Shown here: piece by piece, positions 12,001-15,000 of the stretch
How the letters are laid out: the number at the start of each line of letters is the position of its first letter
Position numbering within the stretch: position 1 is the first letter of the stretch
Source: a virus
Taxonomy: Duplodnaviria; Heunggongvirae; Uroviricota; Caudoviricetes
Length of the DNA stretch: 18,349 bases
Strand: one strand, 5' to 3'
IMG/VR virus record: IMGVR_UViG_2654587685_000017
Span: 1-18,349 of that record
Position numbers: made by a program

Positions 12001-15000
12001 GGAAACATGAATAGAGCCCTTTCACCAATGGTTTCTGAATTTGAAACCATTGAACAAGAAAACAGTTACAACGAATGGCTGCGTGCGAAAGTAGCAACGA
12101 GCCTTGCAGATCCGCGCCCAGCAATTCCCCATGACGAAGTTGAGCGCAGAATGGCAGAACGCTTTGCTAAGATGCGCAAGGAACGGAGCAAGCAGTAAAA
12201 TGTTACCCGTGTTATGGCTTGAAAGCGCAGATACCGACCTAGATGATATAACTAGTTATATTGCTCGTTTCGACATAGATGCGGCTGAACGCTTATGGCA
12301 GCGATTAAGGGGTTGTGTGCTGCCGTTATCCGAACATCCGTATTTATACCCACCAAGCGACAGAGTACCTGGCTTGCGTGAGATTGTAGCCCACCCTAAC
12401 TATATAATTCTATACCGCGTAACAACATCAAGCGTTGAAGTAGTAAACGTGATCCACGCAAGACGCCAGTTTCCCTAACTTTCACTACCAATAGAAACAT
12501 AACAACCGCAACGACTTTATCAAAAGCGTTGTGTTTGTTATGTCCCGCGGTTTAGTTTTTACTTGACTTAAGTTTAATGTTTATTAAACTAAAAATACCA
12601 ACCCACCCCGCCCCACAGAACGCAGGGAAATACTTCGAGTTACCCGGCAGTGGTCAGGGGTTAAGTAGCCAGCCCGAGGCGTATGAACATGACGGCAGGG
12701 TTCAACTTTAATAACTATGCAGCAGGTTTTTGTTCCGCTACCCCGGCGTTAAGGGGAAACAGAGGGTTTCTCAGTGGGCGAAGTCAAACATCAGAATGGA
12801 AGGCATCCCGGGATCGGCAAAGAAGCAGCAATGGCGCTTTATATTGACATCAGCGCCATTGCAGGACAGGTAAGAGTTATCAGAGCGGTAACTAAGCGGT
12901 ATGCGCCTTTACTTCAGAAAGTCTCTGGTGAGTGCACCGAAGATATTGTCAACGATTTCGTCATCGAACTGCGAGGACTCATCTTCAGTTACAAGGTGAC
13001 CACAATTTTTGCAGATGGCTCCCGCGAAACTGTCAGAGCCCTGCGGCTTAAAGGATGTGTCAAAGACTTCGCCACCACATTCTGGGCAAGAAAACTTGAT
13101 TGTATTCATAACCAATTTCCTCTCGAGTAACAGACCCCTCAGAGGATACCACCTCGCCTGACGTGGTTAAAAGCAGGCAACGCTAACCACAAGGAGCCGA
13201 CATGCAGAAACGAGAACCCGTCATCATCGCGCCAGACTATACCGATGATGAACTTTATGAGTGGATGCACCAGAAAATTAATGCAGCGCAGGATCTGAAA
13301 TGGGCCAATGAAGCCAGGGCTAAGCAGGCTGAAAATCTGTCCGCTCTGGAGCAGGATATCACCAATCTGGAAAAAGCAGCGGCATTAAGCATTGCCAGAA
13401 TGATTACATACCCGCGTTAATAGCTAACCAACGAAGCTAAGGTTGGTAATTAAGGAGTTCTCCACGGGTGAGGTGGAGTGCGTGCGCCGGACACGGGTGA
13501 GCATACGGCACTGACAGTTTACTGAAAGGATATTTCCCTGAAAAGTCAGACCATAACGCGAAAGCGCACGGCGAGGTAGCTGGTTCATAGATAGCCTGTC
13601 GTTAAATTTTCGTCGACCGTGCGCTTCCGGTTGTGGCAATCCGCGAAATGGCGCGGCGGTAAGTATGGAGGGGTTATTCCTTCCCCCGTTGAGGACACCG
13701 GGTTGTCAGGTTGACCATACGCTTAAGTGACAACCCCGCTGCAACGCCCTCTGTTATCAATTTTCTGGTGACGTTTGGCGGTATCAGTTTTACTCCGTGA
13801 CTGCTCTGCCGCCCTTTTTAAAGTGAATTTTGTGATGCGGTGAATGCGGCTGAGCGCACGCGGAACAGTTAAAACCAAAAACAGTGTTATGGGGGGATTC
13901 TCTGTATCCGGCGTTAATTGTTAACTGGTTAACGTCACCTGGAGGCACCAGGCACCGCATCACAAAATTCATTGTTGAGGACGCGATAATGAAAACGTTA
14001 TTACCAAACGTTAATACGTCTGAAGGTTGTTTTGAAATTGGTGTCACTATCAGTAACCCAGTATTTACTGAAGATGCCATTAACAAGAGAAAACAAGAAC
14101 GGGAGCTATTAAATAAAATATGCATTCTTTCAATGCTGGCCCGTTTACGTCCGATACAAAAAGGATGCTGCACAATGAATACAGCATTTGCACTTGTTCT
14201 GACAGTTTTTCTTGTTTCCGGAGAGCCAGTTGATATTGCAGTCAGTGTTCACAGGACAATGCAGTAGTGTATGACTGCAGCAACCGAACAGAAAATTCCC
14301 GGTAACTGTTACCCGGTCGATAAAGTTATTCACCAGGATAATAACGAAATCCCGGCAGGTCTTTAAAACAGTTCCGTAATAAATATCCGGTTTCATTCTT
14401 ATATGCCAGCAATGGCAGGGATTTGTTCACCCTTAAATCTGTAATGAGGTTAAAACAAAATGAGTAAAGTCTTTATTTGCGCCGCCATTCCGGACGAACA
14501 GACAACAAAGGAAGAAGGCGCAGTCGCTGTAGCCACAGCCATTGAAGCCGGCGACGAACGCCGCGCCCGAGCAAAATTTCACTGGCAATTCCTGGAACAT
14601 TATCCGGCTGCTCAGGACTGCGCTTATAAATTTCTTGTCTGCGAGGATAAACCCGGCATACCCCGCCCTGCCCTCGATTCATGGGATGCTGAATATATGC
14701 AGGAAAACCGCTGGGATGAGGAGTCTGCTTCCTTTGTCCCGGTTGAGACTGAATCAGATCCGATGAACGTCACTTTTGACAAGCTGGCCCCTGAAGTACA
14801 GAACGCTGTCATGGTTAAGTTCGACACATGTGAAAACATCACCGTTGATATGGTGATTAGCGCGCAGGAATTGTTGCAGGAAGACATGGCAACATTCGAC
14901 GGACATATCGTTGAAGCGTTGATGAAAATGCCAGAAGTTAACGCCATGTATCCGGAGCTTAAGCTGCATGCCATCGGGTGGGTTAAGCATAAATGTAAGC

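What the first reader, a model, noticed from the sequence alone, without database searches (positions are those of the whole stretch)
13424..13819. DicF sRNA preceded by a ~340-nt GC-rich, highly structured leader
The sequence at 13762-13819 matches my recollection of DicF, including its terminator. The upstream 13424-13761 region has no convincing ORF but many local stems, e.g. gcgcacgg...ccgtgcgc around 13566-13626, ggttgtca...tgacaacc around 13700-13735, and ctccac...gtggag around 13452-13473. This fits a processed polycistronic precursor from which DicF is excised and may hold additional small RNAs or RNase E/III sites.
Basis: partly seen in the sequence, partly recalled or inferred. Interest (0 to 1): 0.45.

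Follow-up and report, generated by a model that had tools for sequence, protein, structure and literature searches.

The report
DicF small RNA and its leader
This is the well-studied prophage small RNA DicF with the untranslated precursor it is cut from, which is ordinary; the last third of that leader is a conserved, knotted RNA domain that Rfam does not list and whose job is unknown.

Summary
Rfam DicF matches window 13763-13814 (76.7 bits, cut-off 48), and the 53-nt RNA is identical to K-12 DicF. The locus is ydfC-leader-dicF-dicB of an O157-type lambdoid prophage. It lies on the early-left operon that runs to exonuclease and integrase.

RNase III makes the 5' end of a 190-nt species, RNase E makes the 53-nt DicF, and an intrinsic terminator makes the 3' end. 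The calculated 190-nt 5' end (about 13625-13630) falls in its 3' arm.

One thing goes beyond the literature I could read. Window 13630-13745 is a discrete RNA domain with four helices and a loop pseudoknot:
- It is supported by compensatory changes across Enterobacterales prophages and phage P1.
- It has no Rfam match and is not related to HK022/HK639 put RNA.
- An intrinsic terminator followed it in 64 of 65 distinct contexts, with DicF as only one of about nine hairpin types.
- All 129 sampled DicF copies carry it.

Its function is untested. The candidates are a processing scaffold, a terminator read-through element, or part of a longer trans-acting RNA.

The parts
13202..13420 (+). ydfC coding sequence (72 aa), the gene whose 3' untranslated region is the leader
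   Evidence: Annotated as ydfC in O157 and K-12 records. Matches PHROG 1744 at E=1e-39.
13424..13550 (+). Leader part A: untranslated, with local hairpins. These are CUCCAC 13460-65 with GUGGAG 13473-78, GCCGGA/UACGGC, and CUGAC/GUCAG. It also holds two exact CACGGGTGAG repeats at 13463 and 13492.
   Evidence: Folding energy z=-1.61, not significant. Positions 13450-13522 also occur alone, at 90% identity, in phage phi367. No function is assigned.
13551..13636 (+). Long stem 1. The 5' arm 13551-13575 pairs with the 3' arm 13611-13636, giving 22 bp with two 1-nt interruptions. It is the likely RNase III substrate. The calculated 5' end of the 190-nt DicF species (about 13625-13630) lies in the 3' arm.
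   Evidence: Folds: z=-3.41, with 0 of 200 shuffles as stable. RNase III dependence of the 190-nt species in K-12 is from PMC10448788. The cut position is calculated from the 190-nt length, not read from data.
13630..13745 (+). Conserved structured domain ('module B'):
- P0: 13630-37 with 13738-45.
- P1: 13641-45 with 13652-56.
- P2a: 13657-60 with 13697-700.
- P2b: variable hairpin, 13669-87.
- P3: 13701-08 with 13728-35.
- Pseudoknot: GUAUGG 13663-68 with CCAUAC 13715-20, which lies in the P3 loop.
   Evidence: MAFFT alignment A2 (33 sequences): 94.1% of cells paired; 11 pairs changed on both sides against 3.4±1.2 in shuffles (0 of 500); slid controls 29-54% paired. Model-fitted alignment A3 (74 distinct sequences): 96.2% paired and 12 such pairs. 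The covariance model finds one copy in the window at 155 bits. There is no Rfam match at E≤10.
13746..13761 (+). Single-stranded A/U-rich linker that ends at the RNase E cut producing the DicF 5' end (…UAUCAA|UUUCUGG…)
   Evidence: The position follows from the 53-nt DicF boundary. RNase E dependence is from PMC10448788.
13762..13819 (+). DicF sRNA: the 53-nt RNA 13762-13814, made of seed plus terminator hairpin, followed by the U-run
   Evidence: Rfam RF00039 at 76.7 bits. Hairpin -15.9 kcal/mol, z=-2.32. Identical to K-12 DicF.
13815..13981 (+). Long stem 2. 13815-13842 pairs with 13953-13981 (19 nt are 100% complementary within an MFE-predicted 5' arm of 28 paired nt) and encloses internal hairpins. 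It is the likely RNase III site that gives the 72-nt DicF 3' end on read-through RNA. It ends just before the dicB start.
   Evidence: Inverted repeat I1. Fold of -68.2 kcal/mol. Sub-threshold STnc100-like match at 13812-14021, 39.7 bits against a cut-off of 47. The 72-nt species is described in PMC5069750.
13989..14177 (+). dicB (cell-division inhibitor), the first gene that needs read-through of the DicF terminator
   Evidence: Pfam PF05358 DicB, E=3e-37. Annotation.

Best explanation
The interval is the untranslated ydfC-dicF spacer of a dicBF-type early-left operon in an O157-type lambdoid prophage, and DicF is cut out of it.

Shown in K-12, for a 97-100% identical sequence:
- The operon transcript runs through ydfC and the leader.
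- RNase III cleavage produces a 190-nt species.
- RNase E cleavage produces the 5' end of the 53-nt DicF.
- The 3' end comes from the intrinsic terminator. On read-through RNA it comes from RNase III, giving a 72-nt form.

Inferred here:
- The RNase III substrate is the 22-bp long stem 1.
- The cut frees GUUGUGG (13630-36). Before the cut this strand is paired with CCAUAAC (13551-57).
- GUUGUGG can then close helix P0 of a conserved pseudoknotted domain (13630-13745).
- The 190-nt species is therefore this domain plus a 16-nt linker plus DicF.

My preferred reading of the domain is a cis-acting folding and processing platform. It would define and stabilise the intermediate by burying the new 5' end in a helix. 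It would also present the A/U-rich linker to RNase E at a fixed place, as shown for the stem-loops that flank MicL. The heavy structure of the whole untranslated leader would also limit Rho loading.

The confidence value given (0.85) is for identity and processing route. For the proposed role of the domain it is about 0.35.
For: Identity:
- Rfam DicF at 76.7 bits.
- ydfC/dicB context.
- Lambdoid prophage with repressor side, exonuclease and integrase on the same strand.

Processing route: PMC10448788, PMC5069750, PMC9438474.

Geometry:
- Long stem 1 has z=-3.41.
- A 190-nt RNA ending at 13814-13819 starts at 13625-13630, inside its 3' arm.
- An analogous long stem of unrelated sequence (CACAACGAUGAGAGCA/UGCUCUCUUCGUUGUG) sits at the same place in cdtI/Erwinia-type leaders, and its 3' arm again runs into GUUGUGG.

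Domain:
- Covariation.
- 129 of 129 DicF-seed copies sampled from IMG/VR carry it.
- In 64 of 65 distinct contexts it is followed within about 115 nt by a hairpin plus U-run. Every type I inspected has UUUGG or UUUGCC just before that hairpin stem.

A precedent for stem-loops directing RNase E cuts, MicL, is cited in PMC9438474.
Against: - No processing data exist for this strain, and the RNase III position is calculated rather than read.
- A mere processing platform would not obviously need invariant loop and junction nucleotides and a pseudoknot.
- In P1 the domain starts about 23 nt after the Pban start site, so no RNase III step is needed there.
- In cdtI-type units the linker is only 8 nt. 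An RNase E cut there would release little more than a terminator hairpin.
- The folding energy of the domain alone is not unusual (z=-1.30).
Confidence: 0.85

Rival explanations
1. The conserved domain is a cis-acting RNA that controls transcription termination. It would work like HK022 put or a nut site without being related to them. It would modify RNA polymerase so that it reads through the DicF terminator and later terminators. That read-through is needed to express dicB, ydfD, exonuclease and integrase in prophages that have no N protein.
For: - The domain always sits upstream of the first intrinsic terminator of an early operon (64 of 65 contexts).
- In the phage records with annotation it lies on the early-left side, downstream of the repressor gene. 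In Ayreon it starts about 280 nt after the annotated PL. In P1 it starts about 23 nt after Pban, ahead of 2.6 kb of tRNA genes, tci genes and ban.
- The terminator hairpins differ (about nine types) while the domain stays the same.
- No N-like gene was found in the window or in Ayreon/cdtI.
- Ayreon has a further annotated terminator inside the same operon.
- HK639 has an annotated putL-like RNA of similar size (126 nt) at the analogous place.
Against: - There is no sequence or model similarity to putL or putR of HK022 or HK639.
- There is only one copy per phage, and none in the rightward operon.
- In K-12 the terminated ydfABC-dicF RNA is the form detected. The read-through RNA accumulates only when RNase E is inactive.
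- No boxA-like element survives scrutiny. The UGCUCU motif upstream is explained by pairing within long stem 1.
Confidence: 0.25
2. The functional unit is the whole ~170-190-nt RNA (domain plus linker plus terminator), acting in trans. The conserved domain would bind a host protein or RNA, for example through the pyrimidine-rich P2b loop acting on Shine-Dalgarno sequences. The variable 3' part, DicF or others, would add phage-specific antisense seeds.
For: - In P1 the unit would be a primary transcript from the C1-repressed Pban promoter, ended by its own terminator.
- The 190-nt species accumulates and persists in stationary phase in K-12.
- The UUU stretch before the hairpin plus the 3' U-run resembles, from my own knowledge, the Hfq-binding module of sRNAs.
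- The P2b loop contains UCCU in 57 of 74 distinct sequences.
- The invariant single-stranded nucleotides suggest a conserved partner.
Against: - No target or partner is known.
- The UCCU motif is not universal.
- Published DicF phenotypes map to the 53-nt part.
- The 190-nt RNA behaves as an RNase E substrate, that is, as an intermediate.
Confidence: 0.2
3. The domain is a ligand-sensing aptamer (riboswitch) that sets termination at the hairpin that follows it.
For: The fold is compact and pseudoknotted, with invariant junction and loop nucleotides and one variable hairpin. It is always followed by an intrinsic terminator.
Against: - The linker to the terminator varies from 8 to 53 nt, and the terminators are unrelated. 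I found no mutually exclusive pairing between the domain and the terminator.
- The only alternative pairing found is on the 5' side, with long stem 1.
- The range is narrow (Enterobacterales prophages and P1), and the associated genes suggest no metabolite.
Confidence: 0.06
4. The leader encodes a protein: either the minus-strand ORF annotated as a hypothetical protein in an O157 genome, or a small plus-strand ORF.
For: One O157:H7 RefSeq record (strain TR01) annotates a 54-aa hypothetical protein, WP_001331716.1, over the equivalent of window 13424-13588, minus strand.
Against: - It has no Pfam or PHROG family.
- Among 25 distinct variants it is frameshifted in 9 and has a stop in 1, and substitutions are mostly non-synonymous.
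- K-12 does not annotate it.
- Plus-strand ORFs are at most 31 aa. The one crossing P2b, a hairpin whose length varies by amounts that are not multiples of three, would be broken there.
Confidence: 0.02

Closest known systems
DicF RNA (Rfam RF00039) and the dicBF operon of the Qin prophage of E. coli K-12
   Same: The 53-nt RNA is identical. The gene order ydfC-leader-dicF-dicB-ydfD is the same. The leader is 97% identical. The long stems sit where RNase III-dependent ends were mapped.
   Different: Here the operon sits in an intact-looking O157-type lambdoid prophage. ydfA and ydfB are absent. A relBE pair and a divergent zinc-ribbon gene lie upstream of ydfC.
'dicF-like region' of phage P1, downstream of the C1-controlled Pban promoter
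   Same: It is homologous to the conserved domain: 76% identity over 98 nt, and 86.6 bits with the model. It has compensatory changes in P3 and the pseudoknot, and a terminator follows it.
   Different: It has no ydfC, no leader part A and no long stem 1. The domain starts about 23 nt after the start site. The terminator is unrelated to DicF and has no DicF seed. Downstream lie tRNA genes, tciABC and ban.
put RNAs of phages HK022 and HK639 (RNA-only processive antiterminators)
   Same: They hold the same kind of position: a structured RNA of 70-126 nt early in the leftward operon of an N-less lambdoid phage, ahead of terminators.
   Different: There is no detectable relationship (blastn, covariance model, and local alignment with z≤2.4). 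The architecture differs: four helices plus a pseudoknot against two stems. No activity data exist for the domain.
RNase III hairpins in phage early leaders and operon spacers (lambda N leader, rRNA spacers), and sRNAs matured by RNase III or RNase E such as MicL
   Same: Long, nearly perfect helices flank a functional RNA and set its ends. Structured elements guide RNase E (PMC9438474; the lambda and rRNA examples are from my own knowledge).
   Different: Here the helix 3' arm overlaps the closing helix of the next domain, which implies refolding after the cut. That step is inferred, not shown.
STnc100 (Rfam RF02076)
   Same: The DicF-dicB spacer, which contains long stem 2, gives a full-length but sub-threshold STnc100 match (39.7 bits against 47). 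A true STnc100 copy is at 1351-1540 (-) in the same window.
   Different: The match is below the curated cut-off. It lies outside the interval of the finding.

Membership tests
DicF RNA (RF00039) | Match to the covariance model at or above the gathering score | tested here: met
   76.7 bits against 48, full length 1-52, E=1e-15
DicF RNA (RF00039) | 3' intrinsic terminator hairpin followed by a U-run | tested here: met
   GGCGGUAUCAG…CUGCUCUGCCGCC plus UUUUU; -15.9 kcal/mol, z=-2.32
DicF RNA (RF00039) | Location between ydfC and dicB in a lambdoid prophage | tested here: met
DicF RNA (RF00039) | RNase E-made 5' end, Hfq dependence, repression of ftsZ, manX and other targets | not testable with these tools
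   The sequence is identical to K-12 DicF, so these properties are expected. They were not measured.
dicBF precursor with RNase III processing | Double-stranded helix of about 20 bp or more at the position that gives a 190-nt species | tested here: met
   22-bp stem, 13551-75 with 13611-36, z=-3.41. The calculated 5' end, 13625-30, lies in its 3' arm.
dicBF precursor with RNase III processing | [quoted passage not shown] | not testable with these tools
   Shown only for K-12 (PMC10448788)
HK022-type put antiterminator RNA | Sequence or structure similarity to putL/putR | tested here: not met
   No blastn hit. The model gives no hit at the put sites of HK022 or HK639. Local alignment z≤2.4.
HK022-type put antiterminator RNA | Lies early in an early operon, ahead of terminators | tested here: met
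   P1, cdtI, Ayreon, pPE4 and HannyBb contexts. A terminator follows in 64 of 65 contexts.
HK022-type put antiterminator RNA | Promotes terminator read-through by binding the RNA polymerase beta' zinc-binding domain | not testable with these tools
   Needs transcription assays
Lambda-type nut site | boxA plus a short boxB hairpin, with an N protein encoded downstream | tested here: not met
   No N-like protein was found. The boxA-like UGCUCU motif seen in relatives is the 3' arm of long stem 1.
Transcription-terminating riboswitch | Aptamer 3' part competes with the terminator (overlapping expression platform) | tested here: not met
   The linker is 8-53 nt, the terminators are unrelated, and no alternative pairing with the domain was found.
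Any Rfam 15 family, for the 13424-13761 leader | Match at E≤10 | tested here: not met
   No match falls inside 13424-13761. The hits in 13100-14100 were DicF, a weak STnc100-like match and two chance matches, all at or after 13763.

The most novel reading that the evidence does not exclude
Window 13630-13745 is the founding example of an undescribed family of phage RNA domains. The family has four helices plus a loop pseudoknot and occurs in Enterobacterales lambdoid prophages and in P1. It would act on the transcription machinery at the first terminator of early operons. That would make it an RNA-only read-through device unrelated to put, explaining how N-less DicF-type prophages express dicB, recombination genes and integrase. 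DicF would then be just one of several interchangeable terminator cassettes attached to it.
Probability: 0.25. Interest if true: 0.65.

Novelty: already known. Interest (0 to 1): 0.3.

Why it matters
As stated, the finding re-identifies a textbook prophage sRNA and its published processing route, so it adds nothing new.

The part worth a follow-up is narrower. The 190-nt 'long DicF' has been treated as a mere intermediate. Its non-DicF portion is nevertheless a separately conserved, covarying, pseudoknotted domain.
- It is present in most E. coli genomes: 4426 of 5426 match the leader.
- It is shared with P1.
- It is coupled to at least nine different terminator cassettes.

Knowing what it does would clarify two things. 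One is how toxic division inhibitors and recombination genes of cryptic prophages are gated after the repressor is lifted. The other is whether DicF-type sRNAs are made by a common, modular maturation or read-through device.

Tried and rejected
1. Relationship to HK022 or HK639 put RNA. blastn, the covariance model R1 with filters off, and Smith-Waterman against shuffles were all negative.
2. Any Rfam family for the leader. None at E≤10.
3. tRNA-like or tmRNA-like element. ARAGORN finds nothing in the leader or in relatives.
4. Protein coding on either strand. Rejected.
5. An N-like protein next to the domain. The 126-aa product downstream in Ayreon/cdtI is acidic, has no arginine-rich motif and belongs to a PHROG of unknown function. 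The 39-aa ORF upstream has no family.
6. boxA. The UGCUCU(U/C)UUC motif upstream of the domain in relatives is complementary to CACAACGAUGAGAGCA about 60-130 nt upstream, so it is a stem arm and not a free boxA.
7. A second copy of the domain in the rightward operon or elsewhere in the window. None.
8. Riboswitch-type terminator/antiterminator overlap. Not found.
9. Literature. I found no description of the domain beyond the P1 record's 'dicF-like region' label. Faubladier & Bouché 1994, Murashko 2017 and Melson 2019 are not held, so I cannot exclude that they discuss it.
10. The metagenome scan was not used. The GTDB scan already showed that the pattern is confined to Enterobacterales, apart from chance hits.
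Full report
**What is there**

Rfam's DicF model matches window 13763-13814 on the plus strand at 76.7 bits. The curated cut-off is 48, E is 1e-15, and all 52 model positions are matched. The 53-nt RNA (13762-13814) and its U-run (to 13819) are identical to the K-12 copy (alignment A1).

The surrounding 1.15 kb is 99.4% identical to O157:H7 chromosomes and 97.6% identical to K-12. In those records it is annotated ydfC - (gap) - dicB - ydfD. Pfam confirms DicB at 13989-14177.

The window is a lambdoid prophage:
- A YdaS/YdaT-type immunity region.
- A Q antiterminator at 4162-4725 (-).
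- A DNA methylase, two tRNA genes and a hok/sok pair.
- On the plus strand, in order: repressor side, relBE, ydfC, leader, dicF, dicB, ydfD, an 823-aa exonuclease (14460-16931) and integrase (17231 onward).

So DicF sits in the early-left operon. Its terminator stands between the promoter and dicB, the exonuclease and integrase. No N-like gene was found.

**Check of the observation**

- gcgcacgg 13564-71 with ccgtgcgc 13617-24.
- ggttgtca 13701-08 with tgacaacc 13728-35.

There is no credible ORF. Plus-strand ORFs are at most 31 aa. One O157:H7 RefSeq record (strain TR01) annotates the minus-strand ORF as a hypothetical protein. It has no family match. It is frameshifted in 9 of 25 distinct variants and stopped in one more, and most changes are non-synonymous.

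GC content is only modestly raised: 0.53-0.56 against 0.41-0.50 in the flanks.

Folding energy gives mixed support:
- The whole 407 nt: z=-2.26.
- The long stem: z=-3.41.
- The other two thirds, taken alone, are not unusual.

In K-12 the operon is transcribed only from dicBp. A 190-nt DicF species needs RNase III, and the 53-nt DicF needs RNase E. The 190-nt RNA accumulates when RNase E is inactivated. Both species rise in stationary phase (PMC10448788).

The 53-nt 3' end comes from Rho-independent termination. A 72-nt form comes from RNase III cleavage of read-through RNA (PMC5069750; PMC9438474). All of these cite Faubladier et al. 1990, which I could not read.

**Mapping this onto the window**

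It has two single-nucleotide interruptions.

A 190-nt RNA that ends at 13814-13819 begins at 13625-13630, which is inside the 3' arm. This position is calculated. The coloured letter that marks the site in the paper's Figure S1 is lost in the held text.

Downstream, 13815-13842 pairs with 13953-13981. Of this, 19 nt are perfectly complementary, and the whole element folds at -68.2 kcal/mol. A 72-nt DicF would end at about 13834, inside its 5' arm.

**The leader is modular**

BLAST against phages and 5,426 E. coli genomes shows that different parts of the leader travel separately:
- 13450-13522 occurs alone in phage phi367.
- 13541 onward occurs without ydfC in B strains.
- 13630-13753 occurs at 76-89% identity in cdtI, Ayreon, Stx2c phages, phage vB_Apl-pPE4 (filed in the record under Actinobacillus), and P1/P7.

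In P1 this last stretch begins about 23 nt after the start of the C1-controlled Pban promoter, and part of it is annotated 'dicF-like region'. In cdtI, Ayreon, pPE4 and HannyBb it lies on the early-left side, downstream of the repressor gene.

**A conserved structured domain**

Pattern scans of IMG/VR and of one genome per GTDB species recovered copies from these taxa:
- E. coli, E. albertii, E. ruysiae and Shigella.
- Citrobacter and Trabulsiella.
- Serratia symbiotica, Erwinia tracheiphila and Izhakiella.
- P1-like elements.

The remaining GTDB hits look like chance matches.

A MAFFT alignment of 33 sequences more than 3 edits apart (A2) supports this fold:
- P0: 13630-37 with 13738-45.
- P1: 13641-45 with 13652-56.
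- P2a: 13657-60 with 13697-700.
- P2b: a variable hairpin.
- P3: 13701-08 with 13728-35.
- A pseudoknot between GUAUGG (13663-68) and CCAUAC (13715-20) in the P3 loop.

Examples of compensation:
- P3 is GUUGUCA/UGACAAC in E. coli, GUUGCCA/UGGCAAC in P1 and GUAACCA/UGGUUAC in Izhakiella.
- The pseudoknot is GUAUGG/CCAUAC in most sequences and GCAUGG/CCAUGC in P1.

| Measure | A2 (33 sequences) | A3 (74 distinct, fitted to the model) |
|---|---|---|
| Cells paired | 94.1% | 96.2% |
| Pairs changed on both sides | 11 | 12 |
| Same count in shuffles | 3.4±1.2 (0 of 500 reach it) | 3.8 |
| Slid controls, cells paired | 29-54% | 31-56% |

Three caveats apply. Phylogenetic depth is shallow (Enterobacterales only). 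P2a and most of the pseudoknot are invariant, so they are uninformative. A3 leans towards the model.

Rfam has nothing here at E≤10.

**What always accompanies the domain**

In 64 of 65 distinct downstream contexts, a hairpin plus U-run follows within about 115 nt. There are about nine unrelated hairpin types. The exception is a decayed Shigella copy.

Rfam calls DicF in only one of nine such relatives tested. Conversely, all 129 DicF copies found independently through the DicF seed have the domain upstream. The domain is therefore the wider and presumably older unit, and DicF is one of its 3' cassettes.

On the 5' side, GUUGUGG can pair with upstream CCAUAAC and so extend long stem 1, or with downstream CCACAAC/GCUGCAAC to form P0. 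In cdtI/Erwinia-type leaders a long stem of unrelated sequence occupies the same place, and its 3' arm again ends in GUUGUGG. This suggests, but does not show, that RNase III cleavage releases the strand that closes the domain.

**How it most likely works**

The firm part is that the leader is the precursor spacer from which RNase III, RNase E and the terminator produce DicF.

For the domain I prefer a cis role in folding and processing. It would define the 190-nt intermediate, bury its new 5' end, and expose the A/U-rich linker (…UAUCAA|UUUCUGG…) to RNase E. I give this about 0.35.

The rivals:
- **Terminator read-through (0.25).** The position before the first terminator of N-less early operons, the interchangeable terminators, P1's long ban leader and the HK639 analogy all fit. 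Against it, the domain is unrelated to put, and the terminated RNA is the form detected in K-12.
- **Longer trans-acting RNA (0.2).**
- **Riboswitch (0.06).** The linker is variable and no competing pairing with the terminator was found.
- **Protein coding (0.02).**

**Verdict**

The finding as written is correct and already known, so it scores low. The conserved domain inside it is an unplanned, moderately interesting by-product that needs experiments, not more sequence analysis.

Noticed in passing
window 13812-14021 (+) and window 1351-1540 (-): The DicF-dicB spacer (long stem 2 with internal hairpins, including CACCUGGAGGCACCAGGCACC) gives a full-length but sub-threshold STnc100 match, 39.7 bits against a cut-off of 47. 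A genuine STnc100 copy (132 bits) lies at 1351-1540 on the other strand. STnc100-type RNAs may therefore be RNase III-type spacer structures of prophage operons.
   Followed up: partly
window 13424-13588 (-): One O157:H7 RefSeq record (strain TR01) annotates a 54-aa hypothetical protein (WP_001331716.1) antisense to the leader. It is frameshifted or stopped in 10 of 25 variants and has no family match, so it is probably a spurious gene call.
   Followed up: yes
window 13450-13522; L006:2501-2573 (phage vB_EcoP_phi367): The 5' part of the leader holds two exact CACGGGTGAG repeats at 13463 and 13492. It occurs on its own, at 90% identity, in a Sepvirinae phage just upstream of a PAPS-reductase gene. 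It looks like a separate mobile RNA or DNA module of unknown role.
   Followed up: partly
L152:4640-4720, L154, L150, L139, L051 (Erwinia, Izhakiella, Trabulsiella, Serratia and IMG/VR relatives): In these relatives the terminator hairpin after the domain carries a Shine-Dalgarno sequence and an AUG in its loop (…CCAGGAGAGCGAAGAUAAUGUUCUACCG…). This opens a short ORF that runs through the terminator. Long stem 1 there encloses two hairpins with T-arm-like loops (GGUUCAAUUCC). ARAGORN finds no tRNA.
   Followed up: partly
L142:1446-1579 (Shigella flexneri), L058:5213-5346: These are deletion variants. The promoter-proximal hairpin (CCACCUCGCCUGACGUAG, then UUAAAAGCAGGCACACAACG) is fused directly to helix P1 of the domain. 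ydfC, leader part A and the 5' strand of P0 are lost. The Shigella copy also has a decayed terminator.
   Followed up: no
L005:2580-2790 (phage vB_Apl-pPE4, filed under Actinobacillus): This record carries an E. coli-type lambdoid early region. It has a tandem duplication of the unit 'P0 3' strand + linker + terminator + AAAGUGAAUUUUGUGAU'. The host assignment looks doubtful.
   Followed up: no
window 6741-6916 (-), 12007-12478 (+), 2237-2490 (-): The prophage also carries a sok antitoxin RNA with a hok-like ORF, a relBE toxin-antitoxin pair between the repressor region and ydfC, and tRNA-Arg(UCU) and tRNA-Met/Ile2(CAU) genes downstream of the methylase.
   Followed up: no
window 13686-13694 and 13976-13984: The sequence UUGAGGAC occurs twice. 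One copy is just 3' of hairpin P2b, whose loop is UUAUUCCUU. The other is the Shine-Dalgarno region of dicB. A pyrimidine-rich P2b loop (UCCU in 57 of 74 variants) could in principle pair with either. The GAGGAC flank is absent in P1 and several relatives.
   Followed up: partly
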